In this document: positions 6,359 to 64,000 of the stretch, piece after piece | How the letters are laid out: every line of letters starts with the position of its first letter | How positions within the stretch are numbered: position 1 is the stretch's first letter | Virus record (IMG/VR): IMGVR_UViG_3300025597_000613 | Location: 23,495-87,494 of that record | Length of the DNA stretch: 64,000 nucleotides | DNA from: a virus | Lineage: Duplodnaviria; Heunggongvirae; Uroviricota; Caudoviricetes | Direction: 5' to 3' (one strand) | Position numbers and translations under genes: made by a program | Notes under the pieces: generated by a model | The model's database searches: none | The model's input: only the letters and a program-made list of their open reading frames with translations | Told to the model about the DNA's origin: nothing

Positions 6359-6571
6359 TTATTGAGTCGAATTTTCGGTGTATTTGGCATGACCACTGTA
6401 ATGCCCAATCATTCCATCTTCCATTGGTTCGTTGCACTCGAATACATAGATTTTGGATTTATATTCAAGCACCTCTGGCCAATCAAGGCCCAGAGCCTGG
6501 AAAGTGGCAACAACATGCAGGAAACCGTTTCCGGTACCTACGATATGATATTGACCTGGAAGCATCTTCAT
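6359..6571 (-). CDS. hypothetical protein (70 aa)
   Basis: 4-nt overlap with upstream lipoprotein gene. Confidence 0.35.
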   Translation of the reverse strand: MKMLPGQYHIVGTGNGFLHVVATFQALGLDWPEVLEYKSKIYVFECNEPMEDGMIGHYSGHAKYTENSTQ

Positions 6572-37620: not shown

Positions 37621-37829
37621 TTTACACCATATTTTAGGATTAGCATATTCATCTCAGTGTCATCTAATTTACATAGCCTGCAGACTTCCTTCAATGTGAT
37701 TTGGTCACCGGCTATGTACCATCTACCTAGGTAGATGTATGGATGAAAATCATCGCCGGTCTGTGCTTCGTGGGTATACTCCTCAAAGAGAAGAATTTTT
37801 CTTCCAACTACACTTTCTCGAGTAACCAT
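37617..37829 (-). CDS. hypothetical protein (70 aa)
   Basis: minus-strand ORF, 4-nt overlap. Confidence 0.4.
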   Translation of the reverse strand: MVTRESVVGRKILLFEEYTHEAQTGDDFHPYIYLGRWYIAGDQITLKEVCRLCKLDDTEMNMLILKYGVK

Positions 37830-38599
37830 TACAGTTCCAATATTAGATTCTTATCAAAATTTGGATTCAATTCATCAGGATAATATCCAAAGGGATTACA
37901 TACCACCCTGATATCATTAATCATGTAATCAAGGCTGCGATGTGTATGTCCATGCAGCCACAATTTTACATTTCCATGATAGGCAATTTGTTCTTCGATG
38001 CTTGCATGGTATAAATGATCACTATAGGTATCACGTCCGTTGAGCTTTAATCCATTGCCCGGACTGTGGTGCGTGATAACAACGGTGGGACCATCGAAGG
38101 GTTTTTCAATTTCCTTCAGATAAAAATCCATGAATTCATCGTGTTGCTTAAGGATGAAGGCAGGTGTAATTCTACGATAATTTTCATCGTAGATAACTTG
38201 ATAATCGGACATTTTTCGATGTGCGTATGCCATAATCAGTGGATCACCATCGTCGAAACTAGTCCACATGGTTCCACCGATAAATCTAACTCCATCGATC
38301 CACCTTACATCATTATGAAGAAAGTGAAAATTCTTAGGGCCCGATTCTTCGTAGATTTTCCATTCCTCAATGACTTTATCAAATCTGTGCTCATAGAATT
38401 CATGATTGCCACAGATACGAAGAACATATTTGAAATGTTCAGACAATTCTGTCATGAATGGTTGCGAATATGCACCAATATCAATATCGCCGGCAAGGAT
38501 AAGGATAGTCTCCTTATCCTGATCTGATTTTTCCCAGAGGTGTTCCCAGCGGCGACCGCTGAACTCGAGGTGAAGGTCGGAAAGTAATCTAATCTTCAT
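37829..38599 (-). CDS. calcineurin-like metallophosphoesterase (phage Ser/Thr-phosphatase-like)
   Basis: DLHLE, ILAGDIDIG (GDxxDxG), CGNHEFY (GNHE), HGHTH; start set at ATG 38599 (MKIRLLSD) to clear the HNH gene. Confidence 0.7.
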   Translation of the reverse strand: MKIRLLSDLHLEFSGRRWEHLWEKSDQDKETILILAGDIDIGAYSQPFMTELSEHFKYVLRICGNHEFYEHRFDKVIEEWKIYEESGPKNFHFLHNDVRWIDGVRFIGGTMWTSFDDGDPLIMAYAHRKMSDYQVIYDENYRRITPAFILKQHDEFMDFYLKEIEKPFDGPTVVITHHSPGNGLKLNGRDTYSDHLYHASIEEQIAYHGNVKLWLHGHTHRSLDYMINDIRVVCNPFGYYPDELNPNFDKNLILEL

Positions 38600-38608
38600 A
38601 AATATGCC

Positions 38609-39268
38609 ATGGATTATCAAAAACATTATACACGGCTTATCGAACGTGCGCAAGATAGAATCTTACCGGACTACTCTGAAAAACATCATATATTGCCAAG
38701 ATGCCTCGGTGGTTCAAATTCTAAATCAAATATTGTAAAATTAACACCCGAGGAACACTATGTTGCCCATCAGTTATTATCTAAGATACATCCAGAAAAT
38801 CATTCGCTGAAAAAAGCTGCATGGATGATGACAGTAAGATCAGCAAATCAGCAAAGAAATAATAAAGCCTACGGATGGATTAAAAGAAATGCTCGCCCGA
38901 TGGGCATCACCAATGGTATGTTTGGGAAGACACATTCGGATGAGATAAAAACCAAACTTGCAGAATTAGCCAAACACAGATTTTCAGGTAAGACCTATGA
39001 GGAATTATACGGAAAAGAAAAATCTGATAAATTAAAATTCCAGAGATCAATCAAAGCAAAAGAATTGAGGGCAAAACATCCGACTGTGGGAAAACTCAAC
39101 CCGAATGCTAAATCTTATAAATTTACCAATCCCGAAGGGAATGAATTTTATGTATCTGGAAATTTGAAAGAATTCTGTAAGACAAATAGTCTATGGATTG
39201 AGAAAATTATAGATGTTGCAAAAGGACGAATACCAGAATATAGAGGTTGGAAAATTATCTATGTGTAA
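38609..39268 (+). CDS. HNH homing endonuclease (freestanding, plus strand)
   Basis: N-terminal HHILPRCLGGSNSKSNIVKLTPEEHYVAH is an HNH_3-type motif; opposite strand to neighbours, inserted between two minus-strand genes. Confidence 0.75.
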   Translation: MDYQKHYTRLIERAQDRILPDYSEKHHILPRCLGGSNSKSNIVKLTPEEHYVAHQLLSKIHPENHSLKKAAWMMTVRSANQQRNNKAYGWIKRNARPMGITNGMFGKTHSDEIKTKLAELAKHRFSGKTYEELYGKEKSDKLKFQRSIKAKELRAKHPTVGKLNPNAKSYKFTNPEGNEFYVSGNLKEFCKTNSLWIEKIIDVAKGRIPEYRGWKIIYV

Positions 39269-48835: not shown

Positions 48836-49112
48836 TTGTACGCATCCATTTTAGAACTCTTTCTTTCTTGGCAATCTTTGCCTTTTCGAGTCCTTCTTCG
48901 GTAATACCAATACCTGCTTCTCTGCACATATCAATCATTGCTAATACATCTCCCAATTCCATTTCTAGGTTTTGGAGATTATTTAGCCCATCACCGGATT
49001 TGCGGTTCAATAAACCGAAACGCTTTATCTTAGATGCTGCCTGAATAACTTCGGAGCATTCCTCTTGAAGGATTTCAAGGCATTCCTCTTGGTGGTCAGT
49101 TAAATGACGCAT
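48828..49112 (-). CDS. MazG-like nucleotide pyrophosphohydrolase (small all-alpha NTP-PPase)
   Basis: EECLEILQEECSEVIQAASKIKRFG matches the MazG EExxE...A...FG helix motif. Confidence 0.5.
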   Translation of the reverse strand: MRHLTDHQEECLEILQEECSEVIQAASKIKRFGLLNRKSGDGLNNLQNLEMELGDVLAMIDMCREAGIGITEEGLEKAKIAKKERVLKWMRTNA

Positions 49113-50061
49113 ATTTCTTCTCCCATCCGAGGGCATGTTCAAGCATGTCCTCGATATTGTAATTTGGAGCCCAATCTAATACAGATTTTGCCCTATGAAT
49201 ATCGGCGGTTAATACAGCTGGATCCCCCGGTCTTCTTTCCTTATAAGAAATGTTTAGTTTCTTACCGGTTAGTTTTTCAGCAAATTTTACAAGAGTATAT
49301 ACACTGATTCCCACTCCTGATCCGAGATTTAGAGTTTCGCTACCCTTATCTCCACATAGAAATTCTACGGCCAAAACATGAGCATTGGCAATATCGGCAA
49401 CATGGACATAATCCCTTACACAGGTCCCGTCAAATGTATCATAGTCATTGCCATAGATAGAAAATTCCTCTCCAGTTAGAATTTTCTTACAGAGAATGGG
49501 AATAACGTGAGTGGCGGGATTCTGTACATATCCAAATCTTAGGGACGGATCGGCACCAGCGGCATTAAAATATCTGAAATTTACATATTTCAATCCGTAT
49601 GCCTTAGAATAATCTCTGATCAACAATTCTCCCGCCGCCTTGGTTGAGGCATAGGGATTGATTGGTGAATATGGGAGAGTTTCGGGCAGTAAAGCACTTC
49701 CACCCTGCGAACCATAAATTCCGCCGCTAGAACTATAGATGATTTTATTCATGCCTAGCTCAACCATCTTGTCAAGCATAACCTTCATTTTTACCACATT
49801 ATTTTCGTAGAATTCAGAGGGAATTTCTGTGCTCTTATGCACAATGTGATCCGCTGCTAGATGTATAACCGTATCGAATTTTTCCTCTAGATTATTGAAG
49901 AATTCTGCATAGTCAATAACCTTATAGAGTCCTGCCGGCATATGTCTCGGATTTTCACGATCAACAATTGTTATATCGTATCCGCGGGCGGCCAGCGCCC
50001 AGGCAGTCTGATTTCCTATAAATCCACCGCCGCCTGTAATGAGTATCTTATTGTTCACCAA
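49096..50061 (-). CDS. NAD-dependent nucleotide-sugar epimerase/dehydratase (GalE-like extended SDR)
   Basis: ITGGGGFIG Rossmann motif; catalytic YASTKAAGE (YxxxK). Confidence 0.75.
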   Translation of the reverse strand: MVNNKILITGGGGFIGNQTAWALAARGYDITIVDRENPRHMPAGLYKVIDYAEFFNNLEEKFDTVIHLAADHIVHKSTEIPSEFYENNVVKMKVMLDKMVELGMNKIIYSSSGGIYGSQGGSALLPETLPYSPINPYASTKAAGELLIRDYSKAYGLKYVNFRYFNAAGADPSLRFGYVQNPATHVIPILCKKILTGEEFSIYGNDYDTFDGTCVRDYVHVADIANAHVLAVEFLCGDKGSETLNLGSGVGISVYTLVKFAEKLTGKKLNISYKERRPGDPAVLTADIHRAKSVLDWAPNYNIEDMLEHALGWEKKYASFN

Positions 50062-50278
50062 CCGTCATCCTTTCGATAATCTTGTAGGCCTCAAAAGCCT
50101 CTCTTAGTGCAGGGTACTTATCGAGATGCACGGCCGGCGGATCAATAATCAACAAACGACGTTCTACCTTTCGCAGGCGTTCTTCGATATCCATAACAGG
50201 ATACTTGTTATTTTGCCCACTGTATGATTTTGACCAAGCTATGGTTTCTGAATCAAAATCACTTTCCATGATTTTCAT
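50048..50278 (-). CDS. hypothetical protein, tandem paralog (KYPALREAFEAYKIIER)
   Basis: homologous to the adjacent ORF 50259..50543. Confidence 0.4.
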   Translation of the reverse strand: MKIMESDFDSETIAWSKSYSGQNNKYPVMDIEERLRKVERRLLIIDPPAVHLDKYPALREAFEAYKIIERMTVGEQ

Positions 50279-50543
50279 TTACCAACCTCTCAATAATTTT
50301 ATATTGTTCGTATGCTTCTTTTAGGGCAGGAAATTTATCATGCAATCCAAAGGACGGATGAAGAATTGCAAGTCGTTCTTCGATTTTTTCCATCCTTAGA
50401 TTTAGCTCATTGAATTCCCTATTATTTTTCAAATCCAATTCAATTGAACTCCAGCTTGCACCATTTCCGACGCCGTTAGATATAAGAACCCCGTTTCCTG
50501 CTGTAAGTGTAGGAACGCCGTGCCATGCTTGATTAGTCGCCAT
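50259..50543 (-). CDS. hypothetical protein, tandem paralog (KFPALKEAYEQYKIIER)
   Basis: shares IEERL...LHDKFPALKEAYEQYKIIERL block with 50048..50278. Confidence 0.4.
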   Translation of the reverse strand: MATNQAWHGVPTLTAGNGVLISNGVGNGASWSSIELDLKNNREFNELNLRMEKIEERLAILHPSFGLHDKFPALKEAYEQYKIIERLVNENHGK

Positions 50544-50841
50544 ATTTTATCCTAAACATTAATGCATCATCCGGATCTTCAAATCCTATATAGACGCAAT
50601 CGATATAATTTTGATTTATTGAAATTGATCCTTTGGAATTTTTATTCAACCACATTATCCATTCGTAGGAATCAATAGCATCAATAACTCTCTTCTTTAA
50701 AACAACCTTATACTTTTCGTCGAACCCCGGGGTTACTTCTTGAGGCTTGATATTTTCTTCTTGATGAGGTTCTTCTGCAATGGGCTTAGGTGGTCGTAGA
50801 AAGTCAAACCATTTAGGTGATCTAATTCGTGTTGGAAACAT
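50533..50841 (-). CDS. small protein, EDA-FK motif family (member B)
   Basis: C-terminus VYIGFEDPDDALMFRIKYGD; first 36 codons overlap the 3' end of the PDF gene, no alternative start before Met63. Confidence 0.35.
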   Translation of the reverse strand: MFPTRIRSPKWFDFLRPPKPIAEEPHQEENIKPQEVTPGFDEKYKVVLKKRVIDAIDSYEWIMWLNKNSKGSISINQNYIDCVYIGFEDPDDALMFRIKYGD

Positions 50842-51248
50842 ACTGAATCTAATCCTTGGAGGGTAAGCTCAAAGAATTCTCCATTTTCGTCCTGTGCCAT
50901 GATGTGTATCTTATTAGGTCTTTTCACATAGGCAAAGATATCGGGGAAACTTAGGCACCCTTCTCTCCATCTTTCTGTATCCTTAGCATCAATAATTTCC
51001 GGATTAATGAATACCCTGCGTTTTTGACCACTATTCGATGTATCGGTGACAAATATTCTTTTTGTTACTCCGACTTGATTTGCCGAAAGACCCACACCAT
51101 TCTTGTTGTACATTGTAATGAACATATTTTGAACAAGTTCTTTTAGTTCATTATCAAATACAGTCACGGGTTCGCAGATTTCCTTAAGAATAGGATCCGG
51201 AAAGATCCTAATCTCTAGAAGCTTCGGCTCAGGTAATTCTACTGTCAT
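50733..51248 (-). CDS. def: peptide deformylase
   Basis: all three PDF motifs: GVGLSANQVG, EGCLSFP, QHELDHLNG. Confidence 0.85.
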   Translation of the reverse strand: MTVELPEPKLLEIRIFPDPILKEICEPVTVFDNELKELVQNMFITMYNKNGVGLSANQVGVTKRIFVTDTSNSGQKRRVFINPEIIDAKDTERWREGCLSFPDIFAYVKRPNKIHIMAQDENGEFFELTLQGLDSVCFQHELDHLNGLTFYDHLSPLQKNLIKKKISSLKK

Positions 51249-54011: not shown

Positions 54012-54959
54012 ATGATAAATATTTATAGATTGTTACAACTGTATAGGTATTATTTCGTTATGTCAACAAAGAAGCTCACACAAGATACTTTCATCTCTCG
54101 CTGTAAAGAAATACACGGAGATAAATTTGACTATTCCCCGGCAGTCTATAAAAACATGGCCACAAAGGTGCAGATTATATGCCATTCTTGTAATATAGAG
54201 TGGGAGGTAACGCCTGCAAATCATATACATCTGAAATCCGGATGCCCACAGTGTAAGACAAATAAACATCAAATTAGGATGAATTCTGCAGTCCTCTCTA
54301 CTGAGGAATTTATTTCTCGCTCTAAAGAAATGCACGGCAACAAATTTGACTACTCAATGTCCGAATACAGAGGATCTAATACCAAAATAAAAATTCTTTG
54401 TCCTATACACGGTGAGTTTGAACAATGGCCGCAGGATCATATGAACGGTCGCGGTTGTGAAAAATGCAGTGGTGTAAAAAAGAAAACTACTGAAGAATTT
54501 ATTTCTCAGGCTAAAAGTATTTTCCCGCAATTTGACTATTCACTTGTGGAATATGTAAATGCACATACTCCAGTAAAAATTATTTGTCCTGAACACAACG
54601 AATTCCTTCAAAAGCCTAATGCAATCTTGAATCATATAGGTTGCGAGAAGTGCGGCATTGAAAGAATGTTACAGACCAAAATAGAAAGAAAAATTATTGC
54701 CGATCCTGCAGATAAAACTGAATATGAAAACTATCGTAGAAAAGTTTGGAGAATTTCAAATCAACAATATAAACTACACAAAGATAAAATCAATCCAGAA
54801 AATTTGCCACGAAGTTTGAAATATCATCTAGACCACATCTATTCAATTCAACAGGGATGGGTAAACGGAAAACCAGCTGAAGAAATTGGGCACTGGACAA
54901 ATCTTCAAATATTGGAAGGTACTGAAAATAGGAAGAAGGGAAATAAACTTATTATTTAG
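54012..54959 (+). CDS. HNH homing endonuclease with three tandem zinc-ribbon DNA-binding repeats (plus strand)
   Basis: three repeats EEFISx...HGxKFDYS...CxxHGEF...GCxKC, then C-terminal HNH (HLDHIYSI...NLQIL...NRKKGNK); opposite strand to neighbours. Confidence 0.7.
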   Translation: MINIYRLLQLYRYYFVMSTKKLTQDTFISRCKEIHGDKFDYSPAVYKNMATKVQIICHSCNIEWEVTPANHIHLKSGCPQCKTNKHQIRMNSAVLSTEEFISRSKEMHGNKFDYSMSEYRGSNTKIKILCPIHGEFEQWPQDHMNGRGCEKCSGVKKKTTEEFISQAKSIFPQFDYSLVEYVNAHTPVKIICPEHNEFLQKPNAILNHIGCEKCGIERMLQTKIERKIIADPADKTEYENYRRKVWRISNQQYKLHKDKINPENLPRSLKYHLDHIYSIQQGWVNGKPAEEIGHWTNLQILEGTENRKKGNKLII

Positions 54960-55281
54960 GATATACATCGCAAACCCATAATTTTTTCTTATTATTGGCG
55001 TCGTAGATTATATATCTTCTACCATGATCGTTTTCTATCCAATAATGGGTGGCTGATTGCCCGTAGCATTCTTTGACCGCTATTTCAAATTGATTCATGT
55101 AATCTTTATTATTCCAGTCATCGGCGAGGTGATCAAAAACCATATGGCAGGTGAAGTCAAAAACAGGGTCATCTCCCTTTAGTGTTCTTGCTAATTTCTC
55201 GTGTTCAAAAAATTTCGGGTCCGATACCAAATTAAGAACTTCTTTAGGTAATTTGCGTGTCCATGTGCCCATATATGTCAT
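54952..55281 (-). CDS. hypothetical protein (109 aa)
   Basis: minus-strand ORF. Confidence 0.4.
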   Translation of the reverse strand: MTYMGTWTRKLPKEVLNLVSDPKFFEHEKLARTLKGDDPVFDFTCHMVFDHLADDWNNKDYMNQFEIAVKECYGQSATHYWIENDHGRRYIIYDANNKKKLWVCDVYPK

Positions 55282-55574
55282 AATCTAAAAATCATCCTAA
55301 CATCATTATCAATAAATGTTGAATTTGCTGATTCTGGGGTAAGAAATCCATAAGGAATATATATCTCTACAAATTCCTCATATGGATCTTCTATCACAGT
55401 TGTTTTTGTCTTCCAATAATCAATTTCTGTATCTAAAGATTTAGTCTCATTATCACGTATATAAACAATTGAATAATCCGTGCTAACAACTATTCTCTTA
55501 TAATTTTGATTTGCAGGATCATTCAACAATGCCCTTGCACCCTGAATCTTGTTTGCCGTTACCTGTGTATTCAT
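55278..55574 (-). CDS. hypothetical protein (98 aa)
   Basis: minus-strand ORF, 4-nt overlap. Confidence 0.4.
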   Translation of the reverse strand: MNTQVTANKIQGARALLNDPANQNYKRIVVSTDYSIVYIRDNETKSLDTEIDYWKTKTTVIEDPYEEFVEIYIPYGFLTPESANSTFIDNDVRMIFRL

Positions 55575-55915
55575 TGGTCTTCGTCCTTTTTATATTCTGG
55601 TCTTATTGTGAAAATTTTGCCCGTAGATTCCTGCATTGGTTGAACGCCCATAATTTCATGTGCAATAGTTCCGGGTATTATTCTTCTAATCATCGGCATT
55701 ACGATTTTTTCAAAATCAGAAATTACCGGCTTCGGTGGTGCAGCAAGACGACGAACAATTTCATCTGCTTCCTCCTCCTCGGTCATTGCGGCTTTCTTAA
55801 GATTGACTTCCTCGATAAGAAATTTTCGATGATTCTCTAGTATTTCTTTACTTAGATCATCAAGGCTGTCAATCAAGCTTTTCTTGGTCGGATCATATTT
55901 AGCAGTGTCAGTCAT
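55571..55915 (-). CDS. hypothetical protein (114 aa)
   Basis: minus-strand ORF, 4-nt overlap. Confidence 0.4.
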   Translation of the reverse strand: MTDTAKYDPTKKSLIDSLDDLSKEILENHRKFLIEEVNLKKAAMTEEEEADEIVRRLAAPPKPVISDFEKIVMPMIRRIIPGTIAHEIMGVQPMQESTGKIFTIRPEYKKDEDQ

Positions 55916-56159
55916 TGCTACCTGCGTATTTCAAAATATATGCTGTTGCCTCTTCTCCAGATAACAAGATTGTCTGGTTTGAATACACAAGATGCCCATC
56001 GCCACGGTAATAATAATCCTTCTTGATGGGTTTTACCCTCATCATTTTTGGATTGAGTCTAATTACCTTGCATACCTGCAATAAATTCTTATGGGAAACT
56101 GCTACATAGTTTCCTTCTTGTATAGTCTGCCCTAATATGTCGAGGTGCCTTTCCGCCAT
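55908..56159 (-). CDS. hypothetical protein (83 aa)
   Basis: minus-strand ORF. Confidence 0.4.
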   Translation of the reverse strand: MAERHLDILGQTIQEGNYVAVSHKNLLQVCKVIRLNPKMMRVKPIKKDYYYRGDGHLVYSNQTILLSGEEATAYILKYAGSND

Positions 56160-56404
56160 GTCTCTAAATCCTTCATTATTTCTGCATCAATTTCTGCCGA
56201 AATTTCCTGCGAAAGTATTTCACTTATTACCTTAGCAAGTTCTGCTGCCTTTTCAGCATCAAGTTCTTGTTTGGTTTTCGATAGTTTACTGACAATTTCG
56301 TCAGCTTGCGACTCATCCGCGGGATTTATGTCAGCTGAGCTCTTCGACGGTGTATCCGTTAAAGGTAATCTCGAAATCAGGGAGTTCCAATCTATCCCAG
56401 TCAT
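56132..56404 (-). CDS. doubtful small acidic helical protein
   Basis: N-terminal part is Ser/Thr-rich and overlaps the 2H phosphoesterase gene by >70 nt. Confidence 0.2.
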   Translation of the reverse strand: MTGIDWNSLISRLPLTDTPSKSSADINPADESQADEIVSKLSKTKQELDAEKAAELAKVISEILSQEISAEIDAEIMKDLETWRKGTSTY

Positions 56405-56789
56405 TTGGTGCGTCAGAGGCGACAGTGATGTGCGCGATGTATTCCGGGTAGTCATGTGTTGCTCCGTGTTTTTCCATAAACAGTTCATGCAATCTTGTTG
56501 CATTGGGACAATAAATTTCGAGAACCAAGACTTTCTTGTCTGTCCCTAAAACTTTCCAACCAATTGGTAATGCCTGACATGGTAGTCCAAAATCTTCTCT
56601 TGCGACATCGGAACACTCTGTCTTACTGTAGATTATTGTACAGTGATATTCATCGGAATCCACAAGATTTTCGATGCCTTGCTTCACACAAAAATTCAAT
56701 AATTCTTCGCGTGATTCGACTGATGGAATTAAGCTTGAATAGGTACCGCCAGGATGTGCAGATTCAAAAAGGTAATCAATTTTCTTCAT
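56331..56789 (-). CDS. 2H-superfamily phosphoesterase (Acb1-like / LigT-like cyclic phosphodiesterase)
   Basis: two H-x-T/S-x motifs (YHCTIIYS, AHITVASD) ~72 residues apart; 152 aa. Confidence 0.55.
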   Translation of the reverse strand: MKKIDYLFESAHPGGTYSSLIPSVESREELLNFCVKQGIENLVDSDEYHCTIIYSKTECSDVAREDFGLPCQALPIGWKVLGTDKKVLVLEIYCPNATRLHELFMEKHGATHDYPEYIAHITVASDAPNDWDRLELPDFEITFNGYTVEELS

Positions 56790-57003
56790 ATTTTAATATC
56801 TCAAATTCATTTTTTGCATAGAGAACCTTTGTATCACCATAGTAATTTTTATATGTTCTCTTGTATAGAATACCTATACTGCTATTTCCGTCGATTGTTT
56901 TTACCGGAATGACACGGAATGTCTTTGTCCAGGAGGTCACTGGATGAAGACGAAAAATATTGGCACCATCTGTTACGGGTGGTGGGACCGGTACCCAGGC
57001 CAT
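56776..57003 (-). CDS. hypothetical protein (75 aa)
   Basis: minus-strand ORF. Confidence 0.35.
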   Translation of the reverse strand: MAWVPVPPPVTDGANIFRLHPVTSWTKTFRVIPVKTIDGNSSIGILYKRTYKNYYGDTKVLYAKNEFEILKYEEN

Positions 57004-57473
57004 TAGAAAAATCTAGCCTTCTCGGGATCTTCGAAACCAGCAAGCTTATTTCTTGTCTTTTCTTGCTCTGCCCAATCGTATTCTTGATTAATGCGCTTAC
57101 GAAGATATTCTCTTATGGTACCTCTTTCATTCCAGATAAATTTCTCAAATCTTGTAAGACCGTTGCAAGGGCAATCAACTACAAAATTAATTCCGTTGAG
57201 CTGTTTTCCAGAGATTCCGTCAAGATCATAGTGTAGGATAACACCTTCGGGATTTTTTGCATGTTCCGTCCTGCAGTATTCTTTCCATCTTTCTCTATCA
57301 TCCTCTATGCTGTTTGTATCAGCATAATCCGGCGGGCCGTAACTGGTTTCTGGGCAAAGGTGTAATCTTCCACACCAACCACACTCCATGTCAGCAGAAC
57401 CCACCCCGAAATCAATGGAATATACAAACATATCCGATGGGGCTTCGTCGTCGGTTTTGTACTTCTTCGACAT
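57003..57473 (-). CDS. hypothetical Cys-containing protein (156 aa)
   Basis: ATG with AAGGA SD; CGWCGRLHLCPE ... DCPCNG motifs. Confidence 0.4.
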   Translation of the reverse strand: MSKKYKTDDEAPSDMFVYSIDFGVGSADMECGWCGRLHLCPETSYGPPDYADTNSIEDDRERWKEYCRTEHAKNPEGVILHYDLDGISGKQLNGINFVVDCPCNGLTRFEKFIWNERGTIREYLRKRINQEYDWAEQEKTRNKLAGFEDPEKARFF

Positions 57474-57729
57474 CGCTATTCCTTATAATATCAAAGATAG
57501 TTTCTTTGTACTCATATTCTGGTGTACCGAAAAGTCTATCTATCCAGTGATATTGTGTATACCCTATTTGGCGACGATAAACAAATTCCAACCAGACTTT
57601 CCCATCGCCGACTCGGACAGGATACCATGCAAACCATTTATACCAATTACAATATTTGTAATCTTTATTCTTGATTTTCCACTTCATGATTTGTATCTTT
57701 CTTATAATCTTTCCATATTTGATAGACAA
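57412..57729 (-). CDS. hypothetical protein (105 aa)
   Basis: minus-strand ORF. Confidence 0.35.
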   Translation of the reverse strand: MSIKYGKIIRKIQIMKWKIKNKDYKYCNWYKWFAWYPVRVGDGKVWLEFVYRRQIGYTQYHWIDRLFGTPEYEYKETIFDIIRNSDVEEVQNRRRSPIGYVCIFH

Positions 57730-57787
57730 TGAGCACCGTAATGAGTACCATGGAAATCATAGCGAATAATGTCAATAAAGCTGCCAT

Positions 57788-58630
57788 TTAGACCTCAAAC
57801 TTTCTTGCTTCTTCAAAAGTAACTTTGAATCCAGATGCTGTAGCATGTCCGCCACCACCAAATTGCTCTGCAATTTTGGCAACATCTATTCCGTCTGGCG
57901 TTGATCGCAAACCAAAAAACCTCGCATCGGGTTGATCGTAATAATATGCTGCAAAAGGCTCGTTTTTACACAGTGCAGAACAAATATCCGATCCGTATTG
58001 GTACGTAACATTTGCAGCAGGAATATTATATCCCGCTATATTCAAGCGCCGCACGACCACACCCATCAATTCCTTAACGTCTTTGGCCATTCTGCGTTCA
58101 ATCGCAGTACCTTCCTTGATTTGTTCGTCGAGAGATTGATTTACCAATCTATCCCAATTCTCGAAGGTATATTCATAACTGTAGACGTTGGCTTGGATTT
58201 CTCTGGTTCCGGGCAATAAGAATTTCCAGCGATCTCTATCGTCAATGTGTTTGATAAATTGTGGTACAGGATTTGTAGGGAAGAAATACTTCCAGGCAAG
58301 CATTGCACCGCTCTCAGTATTTTCCGGACTGTAAAATTTCTCCAGGTTTGGTGGATTAAAATCCTTCAAATCCTCGATAGCACTAATGTGATGGTCAATG
58401 TGAATTATTGCCCTTGCCTTTTTGGCTAGTTCTTCCATTACAGGCTTCTTATAACTGAAATCTACAATGTAGACTATCTTGTCAGTTACATCCGGTGGTG
58501 CATCTTTGTAGAAACCGGCGTGAAATTCTATTTCACCCTGTGATAATCTTACAACCCATGCAGCGGTAAACCCATCAGCACAATTACCATGATATATACA
58601 AATTTTCTTAGTCATTCTTTCTTTCTTCAA
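57788..58630 (-). CDS. DHH/DHHA1-family phosphoesterase (NrnA-like nanoRNase/pAp phosphatase fold)
   Basis: DGFTAAWVV, IHIDHH (DHH), C-terminal GGGGHATASGF (DHHA1 GGGH). Confidence 0.75.
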   Translation of the reverse strand: MKKERMTKKICIYHGNCADGFTAAWVVRLSQGEIEFHAGFYKDAPPDVTDKIVYIVDFSYKKPVMEELAKKARAIIHIDHHISAIEDLKDFNPPNLEKFYSPENTESGAMLAWKYFFPTNPVPQFIKHIDDRDRWKFLLPGTREIQANVYSYEYTFENWDRLVNQSLDEQIKEGTAIERRMAKDVKELMGVVVRRLNIAGYNIPAANVTYQYGSDICSALCKNEPFAAYYYDQPDARFFGLRSTPDGIDVAKIAEQFGGGGHATASGFKVTFEEARKFEV

Positions 58631-58829
58631 CTACCTGCATTGATACGGAAGAAAATGCATCAAATCTTTCCTTATTTGCCTCAATAAAGCGTGCTGCAAG
58701 AAGTAATGAAATTCCTTCTGTACCACCAATGCCGTAATTTTGAATATTACGTGTATACTCTTTCTGTGCCCAATCGAGAGCCTTTATTGTTTCATCGGCG
58801 GTTACCGGATATTGTAAAATATTTCTCAT
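58608..58829 (-). CDS. hypothetical protein (73 aa)
   Basis: minus-strand ORF. Confidence 0.4.
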   Translation of the reverse strand: MRNILQYPVTADETIKALDWAQKEYTRNIQNYGIGGTEGISLLLAARFIEANKERFDAFSSVSMQVVEERKND

Positions 58830-59026
58830 TTTCTTTTCCCTCGTATAGTTTTATGTCTTATACCGGAGGCTCTAAAATCTTTCCCACTTGCGAATTTTGG
58901 ATTGCAATTAGCAAAAACTGAATGGGCCATAATGAGCCCATTCAATAATCCGTGCATGTAATCATGTTGCGATTTGGGATATGGCGGGACGCAATTTCTC
59001 TGGATAGAGATTAGGTTCTCTACCAT
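58826..59026 (-). CDS. hypothetical small basic protein
   Basis: start trimmed to ATG with AAGGGA SD, clear of DpdA stop. Confidence 0.35.
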   Translation of the reverse strand: MVENLISIQRNCVPPYPKSQHDYMHGLLNGLIMAHSVFANCNPKFASGKDFRASGIRHKTIRGKRK

Positions 59027-59048: not shown

Positions 59049-60617
59049 TTACTCATCGAGATTGATAAGATCTTCCTTATCGAGACTTGCAAGTTCTTCG
59101 ACGGTAGGTACGTGTTCTTCGTTACCTTCCTCTTCACCACCGAATAATGATTCAAAAGTGGTTACTGCCTTCTTGTCGCCGAAGCTGACATAGTCAAGGA
59201 ATGCCTGATTCTCCTTCAACATAGTATACGGATCTTTATTTGAGGGGTCAAGAAGTTCTTCTACGAAATTATTAAAGAATAGAATTGAATTAGGGACAAA
59301 ATCACTAATGTTGGTTTGCTTCTTCTTATCTCTCATTTGATACCAGTCTTTGTAACTGATATTTTTACGAACTGCATATTCGATGTCAGCTAATCTATTG
59401 ATTTCCTGAACAGCCTGAATGTGGTTGTAGACATTATGCGCCATTACCAATGCATAGGTAGTGGTATCCCAGCTTGTCTTACCAATCTTGTCTTGCTTGT
59501 TCTTATCGGTGGGACCCATTACGCACATATCACCAGTTGTCAAACGTTCCATAATTGGGCCCTGGAATGGCATTGCATAATCTGTGCCTTTAAGTCCCTT
59601 GTCGTCGAGGCCGCGGCCCATTGCGTATGTTAGCTGATCTGGCTTGAAATAATTGTAGTTATAGGACAATGCATAGCCACCCGCTGCCACAAATGGGCTT
59701 GCAGCGTCAAAGCTGATGTTGACATTAGGATTATCGTGCTTCCTCAATAATCTCTCAATGGATGTCAAATAGCATGCCCAATCAAGTCTACCAATGCCCA
59801 AGAAGTGAATCCAGTCCTTGCCTTCGAGGAGACCGTCCCTGCGTAGATCAAGCATTCGTTCAAGAACAGTTTTCATGTTCTTCATGTTAATACCTGCAAA
59901 TGCATAACCTTCCAGAGTATGGTTACGTGGATAGCCCATTAATTCTACGGAATCTGGATTACTGAAATGCTTAACTTCCTCGTACCATTCTTTAGAATTT
60001 TCATTATCGCTACCAGATAGGACATTTAGGAATTTTGTCTTTCCCGGAATTCTATTCTTGATAAAATAATGCAGATTGTGGACAGAGATATCCAGCGTAT
60101 CTTCAAATTTAGTCAATCCTGTTTTGGCACTGAGTGGTGGCTTGGCCGCAAAGGCAGGAACATCCAGCGTCATTGACCAATCTGCTGTGTGTTCGAGATA
60201 ACGAAGAATTTCTTCCCTGAGCTTGTCACCTTCGGGGCCCTTCACTGTTGCCCAATCCAGTTTAATAACACCGGTAGCGATTTGGAATCCACCCGAGTCA
60301 CCGATGAGAATAGTTTTCTCCCGATCGCGCTCGTGGATCATAGGTTCCCTCTTGTCACATTTATCAAGATTTCTCTCTGCGTGACCTGCCGAATACAATC
60401 CAAATTTGTAATTGAAGTAACTACCTTCTTCCTTCAGAAAATTAAGGCCTTCGATTCCATATTCGAAATTCTTTGGAATACGCTCAGCCGGAATAAAATT
60501 CGGATCTGATTGTGCCTTTCCGAGATGTGTAGTATAGAAGCCACTAATTGCTGGGAGATATTTTGCCCATCCGCCAGCCAGATGTCTTTCTGTGAAATTT
60601 ACTCTGTTTTTTGTCAT
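59049..60617 (-). CDS. dpdA: TGT-family transglycosylase, DpdA-like (DNA 7-deazaguanine insertion)
   Basis: ILIGDSGGFQ matches TGT catalytic-Asp motif (LTDSGGFQ); FLGIGRLDW resembles TGT LMGVGKPEDL; co-located with QueE/QueD-like genes. Confidence 0.6.
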   Translation of the reverse strand: MTKNRVNFTERHLAGGWAKYLPAISGFYTTHLGKAQSDPNFIPAERIPKNFEYGIEGLNFLKEEGSYFNYKFGLYSAGHAERNLDKCDKREPMIHERDREKTILIGDSGGFQIATGVIKLDWATVKGPEGDKLREEILRYLEHTADWSMTLDVPAFAAKPPLSAKTGLTKFEDTLDISVHNLHYFIKNRIPGKTKFLNVLSGSDNENSKEWYEEVKHFSNPDSVELMGYPRNHTLEGYAFAGINMKNMKTVLERMLDLRRDGLLEGKDWIHFLGIGRLDWACYLTSIERLLRKHDNPNVNISFDAASPFVAAGGYALSYNYNYFKPDQLTYAMGRGLDDKGLKGTDYAMPFQGPIMERLTTGDMCVMGPTDKNKQDKIGKTSWDTTTYALVMAHNVYNHIQAVQEINRLADIEYAVRKNISYKDWYQMRDKKKQTNISDFVPNSILFFNNFVEELLDPSNKDPYTMLKENQAFLDYVSFGDKKAVTTFESLFGGEEEGNEEHVPTVEELASLDKEDLINLDE

Positions 60618-61401: not shown

Positions 61402-61626
61402 TTAAGCCTTTCTTTCCCATCCTAATTTAATAAGAAGCTTTTCGTGCTCTGCACTAAAATCATCGTATGTCCAGCCATATGCTGCTAATTTTTCTACAAT
61501 ATATGGTCGAAACAATATTTCTGGCCGAAATGTATTGGGATTTATTATTACCCAACTATCCTTGTTTAGAACTGAAACAAAGGGCTCTCGTTGCAGTCTT
61601 CGAAAAGTATCACCCTCGTTCGTCAT
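61402..61626 (-). CDS. small protein, DTF-motif family member
   Basis: MTNEGDTFRRLQREPFVSV...YGWTYDDF. Confidence 0.4.
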   Translation of the reverse strand: MTNEGDTFRRLQREPFVSVLNKDSWVIINPNTFRPEILFRPYIVEKLAAYGWTYDDFSAEHEKLLIKLGWERKA

Positions 61627-62348
61627 GCCTTGCTTGCTGGGAGAATGTAGGAATACTTTCCGAGGCCGCTATCGACTTCAATCTTCAATGCACCCATATC
61701 TGAGAAATACATGGTTACATCTTCATTATCGTTGAGTTTCAAGATGCTCAAGACCTGTGTTAGAGGCCAAGACCACTGATGCTTCAATGCACCAGTGATT
61801 CCCTTAGCAAAGGTAATGGTGGTACGATCAGTCGGACCGGAACCGATAGCAAACTTCAATGCGTCCTTATCTGTGGATACAGTAAAACGCTTCTCAAATC
61901 CGCCAAGAATTCCTTGATAGCTATTCAGTGTAGCAATCTTCTGCTTCTCAGGCTTTAGGGTAATATTCCATGTTGCACCTTTGAATGGCGGAACCTTAAT
62001 TTGCTCATTCACCATCGCTTCACTCATGAAGCGATAGACCGCAACGTCTTCACCGTTATCAAAAGTCATTTCAGTAGGTACTGTTGCACCACCGCGAACT
62101 TCTGTAACGATAGATACATTGGAACCATTGTGCAGATCAATGAAGCCCTTCAGCTGAGCAAGACGCGACAAACCTACGGTTGAATCGATATCCTTAATAG
62201 GTTGATATAGATCACCATAAAGTACCACTGTTTTGTCTGCATCAATTGCTTCAATCTTTGCTTCATTTACTGAGCCTACCAATTTTACCATATCGATGAA
62301 GCCTAAGCTCGATGTATGCTTCACAATATCCTTAAATGCGTCAATCAT
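61623..62348 (-). CDS. putative sliding clamp (gp45-like processivity factor)
   Basis: ~240 aa, immediately downstream of DNA polymerase; only loose resemblance to T4 gp45 by eye; position-based call. Confidence 0.4.
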   Translation of the reverse strand: MIDAFKDIVKHTSSLGFIDMVKLVGSVNEAKIEAIDADKTVVLYGDLYQPIKDIDSTVGLSRLAQLKGFIDLHNGSNVSIVTEVRGGATVPTEMTFDNGEDVAVYRFMSEAMVNEQIKVPPFKGATWNITLKPEKQKIATLNSYQGILGGFEKRFTVSTDKDALKFAIGSGPTDRTTITFAKGITGALKHQWSWPLTQVLSILKLNDNEDVTMYFSDMGALKIEVDSGLGKYSYILPASKA

Positions 62349-62407: not shown

Positions 62408-64000
62408 TCACAGTGCGCTGAAGTCAAATAGTGTTTCCAGATGTGCATGTTCTTTATTGGTACGGCTTAAATCCCATTTCAGCACACCTAACAGGTTTTC
62501 TACCTTCTTATCAACAATACCTGCCATCATCTCATCGCTTGCAAATGGCAAGGATAAGAACCAGGATGGTAGATGAACTTCATCAACCGGATATGCAATG
62601 CTAGACATAAAGTTTTCGCTTGTTTCCTTTAGTTTGCAGACAATAATTTTCTGTCCGTCAACAATACGCATTGAGTGCTGATCCTTGTTAATTTCCTTCA
62701 ATCTATTCCACATCAGGCTTGCACGAACGTGACCGGGCATATTTACACCACCTGTCGCTTCGCCCCTTGCCTTCTTGGCAGCATGCAGTTCTTCCTTCTC
62801 TCTATAGAAAGAAAGCTTATTCACAGCACGAGGAGTTCCTTGTTGCCAAGGCTTCAAGTCTTCAAATTTCTCCTTGAACTTACGGATCTTATCAATAACA
62901 AAGTTTTCTCCCTTGTCACACAATGTATCCATAAGAATCTCTGATAAGAATTCCTGTACAAACTTAGGAGTATCAGATCTCTTCAAATCAAGACCCATAG
63001 CCTTAATCTTACCAGGCTTTCCACCAACGTCAAGGCGGATGTTGTCTTTATCATACATCAAACAAGCATAACGCTTCTTCACGATCCAGATTCCAGATTC
63101 AGAAACTGTTTCACGCGAACTTGCGATAACGCCGGTTGAACGCTTTACAGGCACATTAAGTTTCTTTTCCAAGAATTCCGGGAAAGTAGCCGACACTGCC
63201 TTCGCTAGGTCGTTATACAATTCAATTGTGCTTTCCTTAGTCCACACAATTTCACCACGGGCAATCTCTTCCTTAAGAATAGGATATGCTGAGAAATAAC
63301 AAGAGTCAGTATCTCCGTACACAATTGATTTACCGTAATGGTCATATTCTCCAGCAATCATCAGATTTGTCTGACTTGCCATGTGTTTGGTAATTGTTCT
63401 ACCTGAAAGAGTAGTTGATTGTCCTAGCCTTTGATCAAAGAAACGACTACCGACGTTCAAAAGAGCACCGTAGGCTGAGTTTAGATTAATTTTCTTTACC
63501 AGCTGTCTCTTATCCCAATAACCAATAATTCTTTTTAGGTCTTTTTGGTCACGGTGAATTGCCTTGCCGTCTTTTACCATCAACCTGTGTTGATTCATGT
63601 ATTGAACGACGCGCTTCTTATGACCTTCGGCAATAATTTCCTTTAACTTCTTGGGTTTGTAAGCTTCAGTTTCGGAATATGGATTTGCCTTTGTTTCGGC
63701 ATCGCTGATATCATCATTGGTAAACAATTCCTCAGGAACCTTTACACCATCAATTTTTGGATTATCTTCGATATCCTGATAATTTGTCATGATACCTTGA
63801 AGAGTCTTACGCTCGCTATACCAGCGAGTCAATAGTGCAGGAATTACGCCGTCAATATCAGTCCTGAAAATTGTGCCATTGGCGCTGATACACCATGGCT
63901 GTCCACTTTCAAAAATCAGATCGTGCAGTTCCTTGCCTGTGATTTCAAACGACTGCCCGTCTTCCATATCAAGAATTAGCTTTGTACCAATATCTTGATT
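62408..64000 (-). CDS. B-family DNA polymerase, C-terminal (polymerase) part; N-terminus lies beyond window edge
   Basis: motif B KKINLNSAYGALL (KxxxNSxYG), motif C IVYGDTDSCYF; reading frame stays open upstream of first Met to position 64000. Confidence 0.85.
   Translation of the reverse strand, partial: NQDIGTKLILDMEDGQSFEITGKELHDLIFESGQPWCISANGTIFRTDIDGVIPALLTRWYSERKTLQGIMTNYQDIEDNPKIDGVKVPEELFTNDDISDAETKANPYSETEAYKPKKLKEIIAEGHKKRVVQYMNQHRLMVKDGKAIHRDQKDLKRIIGYWDKRQLVKKINLNSAYGALLNVGSRFFDQRLGQSTTLSGRTITKHMASQTNLMIAGEYDHYGKSIVYGDTDSCYFSAYPILKEEIARGEIVWTKESTIELYNDLAKAVSATFPEFLEKKLNVPVKRSTGVIASSRETVSESGIWIVKKRYACLMYDKDNIRLDVGGKPGKIKAMGLDLKRSDTPKFVQEFLSEILMDTLCDKGENFVIDKIRKFKEKFEDLKPWQQGTPRAVNKLSFYREKEELHAAKKARGEATGGVNMPGHVRASLMWNRLKEINKDQHSMRIVDGQKIIVCKLKETSENFMSSIAYPVDEVHLPSWFLSLPFASDEMMAGIVDKKVENLLGVLKWDLSRTNKEHAHLETLFDFSAL

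What the first reader, a model, noticed from the sequence alone, without database searches (positions are those of the whole stretch)
56331..58630. Acb1-like 2H phosphoesterase close to a DHH/DHHA1 phosphoesterase: candidate anti-signalling (anti-CBASS / anti-cOA) pair
The 152-aa protein 56331..56789 carries the two H-x-T/S-x motifs of the 2H phosphoesterase superfamily (HCTII, HITVA) at LigT-like spacing. Its size matches what I recall for phage anti-CBASS Acb1 (~150 aa), which cleaves cyclic oligonucleotide messengers. Two genes upstream is a complete DHH-DHHA1 enzyme (IHIDHH, GGGGHATASGF). This is the fold used by NrnA/GdpP/Pde2 to degrade pAp, nanoRNAs, c-di-AMP and linear di- or oligonucleotides. 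A 2H ring-opening nuclease followed by a DHH exonuclease would fully destroy cyclic nucleotide immune signals. An alternative reading is 2',3'-cyclic phosphate end healing linked to the RtcB module.
Basis: partly seen in the sequence, partly recalled or inferred. Interest (0 to 1): 0.75.

Follow-up and report, generated by a model that had tools for sequence, protein, structure and literature searches.

The report
Phage Acb1 nuclease beside DHH phosphoesterase
A large uncultured phage carries a clear member of the known Acb1 family, which destroys bacterial CBASS alarm nucleotides, about 1 kb from an intact viral DHH phosphoesterase; the two genes are not an obligate pair, but the same neighbourhood recurs in Pseudomonas phage EL and its relatives.

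Summary
Both ORFs exist as described. The 152-aa protein (56331..56789, minus strand) belongs to the Acb1 family. It scores 61 bits against Pfam PF23474 (cut-off 27). Its closest solved structures are the two phage Acb1 enzymes. It keeps the HxT/HxT tetrad and the residues aligned to T4 Y12, F107 and E141. It lacks the C-terminal lid tryptophan.

The 275/280-aa protein (57788..58615/58630) is an intact two-domain DHH-DHHA1 enzyme. It belongs to a DHH clade found in jumbo phages and giant viruses (phrog_4771, signature YHxxCxDG). It is not an NrnA orthologue.

The two genes lie in a variable island between conserved replication genes and are probably co-transcribed. They are not an obligate pair. 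Only 2 of 11 related DHH-bearing islands carry Acb1. In other phages the DHH sits in replication, recombination or nucleotide-metabolism modules. T4, XacN1, RsoM2USA and GD1 have Acb1 with no DHH nearby.

Against that, all seven Acb1-bearing relatives examined have the DHH upstream. A non-sister DHH clade (Pseudomonas phage EL and two relatives) also places DHH beside a very divergent Acb1. A loose functional coupling therefore remains plausible.

RtcB lies 21 kb away, so the end-healing reading is weak. Verdict: partly supported, and a new member of known kinds.

The parts
56331..56789 (-). Acb1-family 2H phosphodiesterase, 152 aa. Catalytic H49/T51 and H120/T122. Y17, Y114 and E149 align with T4 Y12, F107 and E141. 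The C-terminal lid is short and has no Trp.
   Evidence: Pfam PF23474, 61.1 bits. phrog_755. PDB 7t26 at E=9e-9 with a family profile. Foldseek top five hits are all Acb1 structures. Alignment to T4 57B.
57788..58615 (-). DHH-DHHA1 phosphoesterase, 275 aa from the ATG at 58615 (280 aa from the TTG at 58630). Motifs: YH9xxC12xD14G, D52, D74-H75-H76, D125-D126-x-D128, R189-R190, G254-G255-G256-H257. A long helix (162-184) links the two lobes.
   Evidence: phrog_4771 at E=2e-95. 5500 homologues. Invariant motifs. AF2 pLDDT 90. Foldseek against PDB and BFVD.
57003..57473 (-). p156, a Cys-rich 156-aa protein of unknown function. It follows the DHH in most relatives but also occurs without it.
   Evidence: tblastn synteny. 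Found in 13 of 18 non-redundant islands. No Pfam, PHROG or PDB match.
57412..57729 (-). p105, a small ORF between the DHH and p156. Gene callers disagree on its extent. It is conserved at 40-45% identity in some relatives.
56776..57003 (-). p75, a small ORF whose end overlaps the Acb1 start by 14 nt. Function unknown.
58608..58829 (-). p73, a small ORF whose end overlaps the DHH start. It is the first gene after the terminator-like hairpin.
58917..58946 (-). Terminator-like hairpin (12-bp stem followed by a T-run) between the TGT-like gene and p73. It may mark the upstream end of the p73-DHH-...-Acb1 transcription unit.
   Evidence: This is a consensus scan only.
54012..58829 (.). Variable island between the conserved TGT-like gene (59049..60617) and the conserved p392/p272 genes. 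Its content differs among close relatives. More distant relatives lack the window's island genes here; the TGT-like gene is followed by p272 after 0.2-2 kb.
   Evidence: TGT-anchored loci: the DHH is present in 13 of 57, which is 13 of 19 close relatives and 0 of 38 distant ones. Island gene clusters.

Best explanation
The 152-aa gene encodes an Acb1-family 2H phosphodiesterase. By homology to T4 and FBB1 Acb1, it should bind CBASS cyclic di- and trinucleotides that contain adenosine. It should cleave the 3'-5' bond 3' of adenosine without metal, through a 2',3'-cyclic phosphate intermediate, leaving linear 3'-phosphorylated products. CBASS effectors would then not be activated. It is an accessory gene that sits sporadically in a variable island of a large phage.

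The DHH-DHHA1 gene about 1 kb upstream is a separate, catalytically intact, metal-dependent phosphodiesterase of a pan-viral clade. Its own distribution is tied mainly to replication, recombination and nucleotide-metabolism modules. Its most likely chemistry is hydrolysis of very short linear oligo- or dinucleotides to mononucleotides, as in NrnA, PggH and DhhP.

The two are neighbours in one early transcription unit rather than an obligate two-step machine. A loose coupling is possible but not shown. The DHH might clear Acb1's linear products, or it might act on nucleotides that Acb1 cannot cut.

Shown here: family membership, motifs, folds, synteny and distribution. Inferred: substrates, co-transcription and biological role.
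For: Acb1:
- Pfam PF23474 at 61.1 bits against a cut-off of 27.
- All 66 database homologues carry PF23474.
- A family profile hits FBB1 Acb1 at E=9e-9.
- The AF2 model (pLDDT 93) has Acb1 structures 7t27, 7t26, 9q2g and 9q2y as its top five Foldseek hits (E=8e-10 to 4e-8, TM about 0.7). LigT scores only about 1e-4.
- The residues aligned to T4 Y12, H44, T46, F107, H113, T115 and E141 are conserved. Their roles are taken from PMC9117128.
- The gene is sporadic: 2 of 18 non-redundant related islands.

DHH:
- All motifs are invariant across 38 homologues and conserved in distant ones.
- Foldseek finds NrnA, PggH, DhhP, Rv2837c and GdpP at E=1e-11 to 1e-9.
- BFVD top hits are jumbo-phage and giant-virus DHH proteins, with TM up to 0.91.
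- Neighbourhoods in other phages: PolA-primase-DHH in Tiera and six IMG/VR loci; SbcC-x-DHH-HNH-SbcD in PaBG; helicase-DHH in RP12; Tmk-x-DHH in LucasX; ligase-x-RNaseH-DHH in EL.

Not obligate:
- Only 2 of 11 DHH-bearing related islands have Acb1.
- No Acb1 is found near the DHH in about 20 other lineages.
- No DHH lies within the 2-6 kb read on either side of Acb1 in T4, XacN1, RsoM2USA, GD1 or L139-L141.
Against: DHH-Acb1 adjacency recurs more often than a purely accidental neighbourhood would suggest.
- All seven Acb1-bearing relatives examined have the DHH 0.6-1.9 kb upstream.
- EL, L137 and L138 form a DHH clade that is not sister to the window's clade. Their Acb1 is barely alignable to the window's (E=0.065). 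They still place DHH and Acb1 side by side.
- The DHH lies in a variable island, not in the conserved core. It is absent from 6 of 19 close relatives and from all 38 distant relatives at this locus. That fits an accessory or counter-defence gene.
- Viral DHH enzymes have been shown to degrade 3'3'-cGAMP and other messengers (bioRxiv 10.64898/2026.07.21.739742).
- No biochemistry exists for this clade. The solved enzymes are only 12-20% identical to it, so substrate inference is weak.
Confidence: 0.55

Rival explanations
1. This is the first reader's reading: a true two-enzyme anti-signalling cassette. In one version Acb1 opens cyclic di- and trinucleotides and the DHH enzyme degrades the linear products. 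In the other version the DHH covers signals outside Acb1's range. Acb1 does not cut cGG or rings larger than three nucleotides, so candidates include cA4, cA6, c-di-GMP, c-di-AMP and SAM-AMP.
For: - The genes share a strand and no terminator-like site lies between them.
- All seven Acb1-bearing relatives keep the DHH upstream.
- Adjacency arose in a second, non-sister DHH clade, EL/L137/L138, whose Acb1 is highly divergent.
- Both genes lie in a variable island.
- The closest solved folds act on di- or cyclic dinucleotides: PggH, DhhP, Rv2837c/CdnP and GdpP.
- The model has the ordered inter-lobe helix that the preprint describes for viral DHH groups 4 and 5, and mimivirus R106 degrades many messengers.
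- Acb1's limits on cGG and on large rings leave a niche for a second enzyme.
- Iyer et al. 2021 predicted this role for jumbo-phage DHH enzymes.
Against: - Most DHH-bearing phages lack a nearby Acb1, and the Acb1-bearing phages checked outside these two clades lack a nearby DHH.
- DHH neighbours elsewhere are replication and recombination genes.
- No other known anti-defence family was found in the island of relatives. The window's island genes have no PADLOC match.
- EL gp125 (Ph_DHH_7B) was in the tested set and was not reported as blocking cGAMP-STING signalling.
- Linear Acb1 products are already inactive, so a second step is not needed for evasion.
- Acb1 products carry 5'-OH and 3'-P, whereas NrnA-type enzymes prefer 5'-phosphorylated substrates (textbook knowledge, not tested here).
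Confidence: 0.27
2. This concerns the DHH only. It would be a minimal RecJ- or GAN-like single-strand exonuclease working in phage replication or recombination. Acb1 would simply be an accessory gene inserted next to it.
For: - PaBG places the DHH between the SbcC-like and SbcD-like genes. Tiera-like phages place it directly after PolA and primase.
- Neighbours are enriched in PolA, DUF3987 primase, AAA_24, Rep_O, sliding clamp and PolB.
- Motif I, 'CADGFT', resembles the RecJ pattern 'DADGxT' (from memory, not tested).
- A rigid helix joins the two lobes, as in RecJ.
- Archaeal RecJ2 and RecJ-Cdc45 are among the Foldseek hits, with the highest query TM scores of 0.59-0.64.
- Brevundimonas phage annotators call it an ssDNA-specific exonuclease.
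Against: - It is only 275 aa, with two lobes and no OB fold or extra RecJ domains.
- The best Foldseek E-values go to NrnA-type enzymes.
- The only NCBIfam hit, weak as it is, is NrnA.
- It is missing from a third of close relatives. That would be odd for a replisome part, although it could lie elsewhere in those genomes.
Confidence: 0.13
3. This is the RNA or tRNA end-healing reading. The 2H protein would open 2',3'-cyclic phosphate ends, the DHH would trim or dephosphorylate them, and RtcB or a ligase would reseal the strand.
For: - 2H enzymes of the LigT/CPDase type do this, and Iyer et al. propose it for jumbo-phage 2H proteins.
- The window encodes RtcB and two tRNAs.
- In EL the DHH and the 2H gene follow a DNA ligase and an RNase H.
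- PHROG labels the family 'RNA ligase'.
Against: - RtcB is 21 kb away with unrelated neighbours.
- RtcB joins 2',3'-cyclic-P or 3'-P ends to 5'-OH ends directly and needs no healing enzyme (established biochemistry, from memory).
- The protein is closer to Acb1 than to LigT in sequence and in fold.
- It keeps the residues aligned to T4 Acb1's base-stacking Tyr (Y12) and adenine-contacting Glu (E141).
Confidence: 0.05

Closest known systems
Acb1 (T4 gp57B; Erwinia phage FBB1 Acb1, PDB 7T26/7T27; Burkholderia phage BCSR5 phosphodiesterase, PDB 9Q2G); Pfam PF23474
   Same: - Compact 2H fold of about 150 aa, encoded by a phage.
- HxT/HxT tetrad.
- Residues aligned to T4 Y12, F107 and E141.
- Best sequence and best structural matches.
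   Different: - Only 22-24% identical to FBB1 and T4 Acb1.
- The C-terminus ends 3 residues after the conserved Glu, so the lid tryptophan (T4 W147) is absent. An invariant F143 may or may not replace it.
- Conserved Cys residues (HCT, C59, C71, C94) are particular to this subfamily.
- The genomic setting differs: T4 57B lies between 57A and ipI.
Viral DHH-DHHA1 phosphodiesterases: phrog_4771; Pseudomonas phage EL gp125; Caulobacter phiCbK-like, Marseillevirus and Klosneuvirus DHH proteins; the viral DHH groups of bioRxiv 10.64898/2026.07.21.739742
   Same: - Two-lobe DHH/DHHA1 fold with a rigid connecting helix.
- Motifs YHxxCxDG, DHH, DRDxW and GGGH.
- 34-46% identity to phage homologues, and TM up to 0.91 to giant-virus homologues.
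   Different: - Nobody has assayed a member of this particular clade with a positive result.
- Mimivirus R106 and Ph-DHH-3B, which do degrade 3'3'-cGAMP, could not be compared directly here.
- EL gp125 carries an extra 110-aa N-terminal extension.
Bacterial NrnA/Pde2, PggH, DhhP, Rv2837c (CdnP) and the GdpP catalytic domain
   Same: Same fold and same catalytic motif set. These are the best PDB Foldseek hits, at E=1e-11 to 1e-9.
   Different: - 12-20% identity.
- NCBIfam NrnA scores 21.8 bits against a cut-off of 350.
- The first Asp of motif I (DxD) is replaced by an invariant Cys.
- The protein is shorter (275 against about 320 aa), and the linker is an ordered helix rather than a flexible one.
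LigT / 2',3'-cyclic phosphodiesterases of the 2H superfamily
   Same: 2H fold and HxT/S motifs.
   Different: The structural match is weaker (E about 1e-4 against 1e-9 for Acb1). The Pfam 2_5_RNA_ligase2 family was not matched.

Membership tests
Acb1 (Pfam PF23474) | Score above the curated family threshold | tested here: met
   61.1 bits against a cut-off of 27, E=1.2e-16, covering profile positions 2-137 of 144.
Acb1 (Pfam PF23474) | HxT/HxT catalytic tetrad (T4 H44, T46, H113, T115) | tested here: met
   H49, T51, H120 and T122 are invariant in 33 homologues and align to the T4 residues.
Acb1 (Pfam PF23474) | Compact 2H fold closest to solved Acb1 structures | tested here: met
   AF2 pLDDT 93. 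The Foldseek top five hits are 7t27, 7t26, 9q2y and 9q2g, at E=8e-10 to 4e-8 and TM 0.65-0.74.
Acb1 (Pfam PF23474) | Base-stacking aromatic residues (Y12, W74, F107) and the adenine-contacting E141 | tested here: met
   Y17 (invariant), Y114 (Y or F) and E149 align to Y12, F107 and E141. The W74 equivalent is probably W78 (W, F or Y in the family), but the alignment there is approximate.
Acb1 (Pfam PF23474) | C-terminal lid with W147 closing over the ligand | tested here: not met
   The protein ends at S152, three residues after E149, and has no Trp in its C-terminus. T4 and XacN1 have ...LDWA... beyond this point.
Acb1 (Pfam PF23474) | [quoted passage not shown] | not testable with these tools
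   Needs enzyme assays and plaque assays.
DHH/DHHA1 phosphoesterase superfamily | Motifs I-IV (DxD, D, DHH, D) and the DHHA1 GGGH motif | tested here: met
   H9, D14, D52, D74-H75-H76, D125/D126/D128 and G254-H257 are invariant. Motif I is CxD rather than DxD.
DHH/DHHA1 phosphoesterase superfamily | Pfam DHH (PF01368) and DHHA1 (PF02272) thresholds | tested here: not met
   19.9 bits against 28.1, and 24.7 against 25.9. Membership rests instead on phrog_4771 at E=2e-95 and on the fold.
DHH/DHHA1 phosphoesterase superfamily | Two-lobe DHH plus DHHA1 fold | tested here: met
   AF2 pLDDT 90. 56 PDB hits at E<=1e-3; the 50 best are all DHH-family enzymes.
NrnA (NCBIfam NF053633 equivalog) | Score above the equivalog cut-off | tested here: not met
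   21.8 bits against a cut-off of 350.
RecJ | DHH/DHHA1 core plus OB-fold and further domains, more than 420 aa | tested here: not met
   275 aa. The model shows only two lobes and a linker helix.
Dedicated Acb1-DHH gene pair (as proposed) | Conserved co-localisation across lineages that carry either gene | tested here: inconclusive
   For: 7 of 7 Acb1-bearing relatives and 3 of 3 members of the EL clade show it. Against: 2 of 11 DHH-bearing related islands; none of about 20 other DHH lineages; none of 5 other Acb1 lineages.

The most novel reading that the evidence does not exclude
The pan-viral 'YHxxCxDG' DHH clade would be a second enzyme that degrades immune nucleotides and is functionally coupled to Acb1. 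It would either finish off Acb1's linear 3'-phosphorylated products or destroy signals Acb1 cannot cut (cA4, cA6, c-di-GMP, SAM-AMP). This two-enzyme cassette would have been assembled independently at least twice in jumbo phages: once in the window's clade and once in EL-like nucleus-forming phages.
Probability: 0.25. Interest if true: 0.62.

Novelty: new member of a known kind. Interest (0 to 1): 0.35.

Why it matters
Acb1 is already a characterised anti-CBASS enzyme, so this gene mainly extends the family into an uncultured clade of large phages. It also shows a natural variant without the lid tryptophan, which may shift substrate range.

The more useful lead is the DHH enzyme. It belongs to a large, unassayed viral clade shared by jumbo phages and giant viruses. 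Its repeated placement next to Acb1 in two unrelated phage groups gives a concrete, cheap test of whether viral DHH enzymes take part in nucleotide-signal evasion or in nucleotide salvage and replication. Phage EL can be cultured and is a ready model.

Tried and rejected
- Megablast of the region against GenBank phages found nothing. The phage is known only from metagenomes (JGI 3300010348 and Logan contigs up to 239 kb).
- I first read the DHH as a core replication-module gene, because 12 DHH-anchored loci were all syntenic. I rejected this after anchoring on the TGT-like gene. The DHH is absent from 6 of 19 close relatives and from all 38 distant relatives at this locus.
- I looked for an 'anti-defence island'. 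The island genes of relatives contain Gp23 fragments, sugar oxidoreductases and homing endonucleases, and no other known counter-defence family. PADLOC found nothing for the window's island genes.
- A search with a diverse Acb1 alignment in IMG/VR failed because no stretch was conserved enough. The window's Acb1 used as a single query in IMG/VR found nothing.
- p156 and the TGT-like protein have no sequence match in the PDB.
- The identity of PDB 9r7o could not be traced in the paper library. Foldseek later named it Borrelia DhhP.
- The RtcB neighbourhood shows no link to the 2H or DHH genes.
- I did not use the search of protein representatives or the metagenome and genome scans. They would not have changed the verdict.
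Full report
**Source and setting**

The window comes from an uncultured large phage. The same proteins occur on a 91-kb JGI contig (3300010348) and on Logan and ENA contigs up to 239 kb. No GenBank phage is close at the DNA level. Almost all genes are on the minus strand.

Around the finding the gene order, in the direction of transcription, is:
- family-B DNA polymerase (its C-terminal 519 codons lie at 62408..63967; the gene runs past the end of the window)
- a 241-aa protein at 61623..62348, in the position of a sliding clamp; a relative's counterpart (L017) matches gp45-slide_C
- small ORFs
- a 522-aa protein with a DSGGFQ motif (59049..60617)
- p73
- DHH
- p105
- p156
- p75
- Acb1-like gene
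- p83b
- a Gp23-fragment protein, then p98 and p109
- a plus-strand DUF723 gene
- p392, p272 and p115
- peptide deformylase

**Observation**

Both ORFs and all four quoted motifs are present at the stated coordinates. Neither is a chance ORF. The 152-aa protein hits Pfam Acb1 at E=1.2e-16. The DHH protein hits phrog_4771 at E=2e-95 and has 5500 database homologues.

There are three small corrections. Three short ORFs, not two, separate the genes. The DHH most likely starts at the ATG at 58615, giving 275 aa. RtcB lies 21 kb away, at 33929..35122.

**The 2H protein is an Acb1**

- All 66 homologues found carry PF23474.
- H49-x-T51 and H120-x-T122 are invariant, as are Y17 and F143.
- A profile of the family hits FBB1 Acb1 (7t26) at E=9e-9.
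- The AF2 model (pLDDT 93) has as its five best PDB matches the FBB1 Acb1 structures and the Burkholderia phage BCSR5 phosphodiesterase. These score E=8e-10 to 4e-8 with TM about 0.7. LigT-type enzymes follow at about 1e-4.
- tblastn finds gp57B of KVP40, Aeh1 and PX29.

I aligned the protein with T4 57B and read it against the residue roles in Hobbs et al. 2022 (PMC9117128). Y17 corresponds to Y12, H49/T51 to H44/T46, Y114 to F107, H120/T122 to H113/T115, and E149 to E141. The last of these is the contact with adenine N6.

One defining feature is missing. The protein stops three residues after E149, so it has no counterpart of the lid tryptophan W147. I therefore file it as a member of the Acb1 family with a shortened lid. 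Its activity is inferred, not shown.

**The DHH protein**

The invariant residues give the full catalytic set: H9, C12, D14, D52, D74-H75-H76, D125/D126/D128, R189-R190 and GGGH at 254-257. The first Asp of motif I is replaced by Cys. The signature YHxxCxDG ... DHH ... DRDxW ... GGGH holds in distant homologues from Tiera, Vibrio phage Her, CcrColossus, EL, LucasX, PCH45 and others.

The model (pLDDT 90) has two lobes joined by a long helix. Against the PDB, the DHH nano-RNases and dinucleotide phosphodiesterases and the archaeal RecJ proteins all match at E=1e-11 to 1e-9, with only 12-20% identity. It is not an NrnA orthologue: 21.8 bits against a cut-off of 350. Against BFVD the best hits are jumbo-phage and giant-virus DHH proteins from Marseillevirus, Lausannevirus, Klosneuvirus and Pithovirus. 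These reach TM 0.91 and E=1e-26. So it belongs to a pan-viral clade.

A July 2026 preprint (10.64898/2026.07.21.739742) describes viral DHH groups that have just such an ordered linker helix. It shows that mimivirus R106 and one phage DHH degrade 3'3'-cGAMP. Iyer et al. 2021 (PMC7824862) had predicted counter-signalling roles for jumbo-phage DHH enzymes. I could not place the window's protein in the preprint's tree.

**Are they a pair? Evidence against an obligate pair**

- I anchored on the TGT-like gene and examined 57 IMG/VR loci with enough downstream sequence. The conserved frame is polymerase, clamp, TGT-like gene, then p392/p272/p115. The DHH is present in 13 of 19 close relatives and in none of 38 distant ones. 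The segment from about 54.0 to 58.8 kb is therefore a variable island.
- In 18 non-redundant related islands, the DHH occurs in 11 and Acb1 in 2.
- I built a local Acb1 HMM. It finds no Acb1 within 5-6 kb of the DHH in the Tiera-like loci, Vibrio phage Her, CcrColossus, Gurke, LucasX, ME3, PaBG, RP12, PCH45, Nodularia phage, GR7B or the other IMG/VR loci.
- Conversely, no DHH lies within the 2-6 kb read on either side of Acb1 in XacN1, RsoM2USA, Paraglaciecola GD1, T4 or L139-L141.
- In those other phages the DHH sits in DNA-metabolism modules. Examples are PolA-primase-DHH, SbcC-x-DHH-HNH-SbcD in PaBG, helicase-DHH in RP12 and thymidylate kinase-x-DHH in LucasX. A Pfam census of 88 neighbouring proteins is led by DNA_pol_A, DUF3987, Phage_integrase, AAA_24, Rep_O and ParB.

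**Are they a pair? Evidence for some coupling**

- Every Acb1-bearing relative I examined has the order DHH, (p105), p156..., Acb1. These are the window, L008, L037, L142, L143, L144 and the P0153 locus.
- In Pseudomonas phage EL the order is NAD-ligase, gp123, RNase H, DHH gp125, gp126. The DHH gp125 is 34% identical to the window's (E=3e-52). gp126 is an Acb1-family protein (PF23474, 43.5 bits).
- Two EL relatives (L137 and L138, with Acb1 at 68% and 50% identity to EL's) keep the adjacency.
- In a neighbour-joining tree of DHH sequences, the window's clade and the EL clade are not sisters. Lineages without Acb1 lie between them. The two Acb1 proteins are barely alignable (E=0.065). The association therefore looks as if it arose twice, or is very old and was mostly lost.
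- Within the window, a terminator-like hairpin precedes p73 and none lies between the DHH and Acb1 on the coding strand. The ORFs overlap or abut. Co-transcription is likely but is inferred.

**Weighing the evidence**

Acb1's function does not require a partner: T4 Acb1 alone degrades the signals and rescues the phage (PMC9117128). Its products are already inactive.

EL gp125 is 'Ph_DHH_7B' in the preprint's tested set and is not among the enzymes reported to block cGAMP-STING signalling. That is weak negative evidence, because the assay used human cells and only cGAMP.

Acb1 does not cut cGG or rings larger than trinucleotides. A complementary enzyme would therefore have a niche.

I conclude that the Acb1 call is solid. 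The DHH is a real enzyme of unresolved role, most probably a hydrolase of short oligo- or dinucleotides. The 'pair' is a recurrent neighbourhood, not a demonstrated system. No paper in the searchable library links Acb1 and DHH.

**The end-healing alternative**

RtcB is 21 kb away, among a radical-SAM protein, a metallophosphatase and unknowns. By its known mechanism RtcB needs no 2H healing step. The protein is Acb1-like rather than LigT-like. I give this reading about 5%.

**Novelty and score**

This is a new, divergent member of the known Acb1 family, next to a member of a recently recognised viral DHH clade. The recurrent DHH-Acb1 neighbourhood in two jumbo-phage groups is, as far as I could find, unreported. 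It is testable in phage EL. Interest: 0.35.

Noticed in passing
window 59049..60617 (-): This 522-aa protein carries the motif GDSGGFQ, which I recall as the catalytic motif of tRNA-guanine transglycosylase and DpdA enzymes. It has no Pfam, NCBIfam or PDB sequence match. It is a strongly conserved core gene next to the clamp-like gene, with 134 IMG/VR relatives at 43-83% identity. It may be a divergent DNA base-exchange enzyme.
   Followed up: partly
window 55571..55915 (-), and the overlapping ORF 56132..56503 (-): A 114-aa protein has a C-terminal part that matches the first 48 positions of the Gp23 major capsid profile (PF07068, E=3e-13). Relatives carry other small Gp23-fragment proteins in the same island. 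These may be capsid-targeting or decoy peptides, or remnants left by homing-endonuclease activity.
   Followed up: partly
window 54012..54959 (+): This is the only plus-strand gene in the region. It is a 315-aa DUF723 protein with repeated Cys/His modules. Relatives have a DUF7487 or homing-endonuclease gene at the same spot. A mobile endonuclease may drive the variability of the island.
   Followed up: partly
window 57003..57473 (-): p156 is a Cys-rich protein (CGWCGRLHLC ... CPCNG). It follows the DHH in most relatives but also occurs where the DHH is absent (L046, L050, L066, L068). It matches nothing in Pfam, PHROGs, PADLOC or the PDB.
   Followed up: partly
L123 (Pseudomonas phage EL, NC_007623) 837..6623: EL has a cluster of NAD-dependent DNA ligase, gp123, RNase H, DHH gp125 and gp126. 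RefSeq labels gp126 'RNA ligase', but it scores as Pfam Acb1 at 43.5 bits. EL may therefore encode an unrecognised anti-CBASS nuclease.
   Followed up: partly
PDB 8hds (cyanophage Pam3 portal protein), residues about 478-582: The C-terminal part of this portal protein aligns with the window's Acb1 family, including both HxT motifs (ELHVTIAYS and YQSHISLS; E=1.4e-4 with the profile). This would be an Acb1-like 2H domain fused to a portal protein.
   Followed up: no
window 33929..35122 (-) and its neighbours at 35877..36842 and 37829..38653: RtcB RNA ligase lies near a radical-SAM protein and a calcineurin-like metallophosphatase. The window also has tRNA-Met and tRNA-Arg at 3554..3629 and 5299..5373.
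   Followed up: partly
window 49096..51248 (-): Auxiliary genes lie downstream of the island: a peptide deformylase (50733..51248), an NAD-dependent epimerase/dehydratase (49096..50061) and, next to it, a weak MazG-like ORF. p392 shows weak glycosyltransferase signals. Relatives insert GFO/IDH/MocA and ADH-type oxidoreductases here. Together these suggest a sugar-modification module.
   Followed up: no
L130 (Pseudomonas phage PaBG) 2960..8917: A DHH homologue and an HNH endonuclease sit between the SbcC-like and SbcD-like recombination nuclease genes. This is the strongest contextual hint that the clade has a DNA-end-processing role.
   Followed up: no
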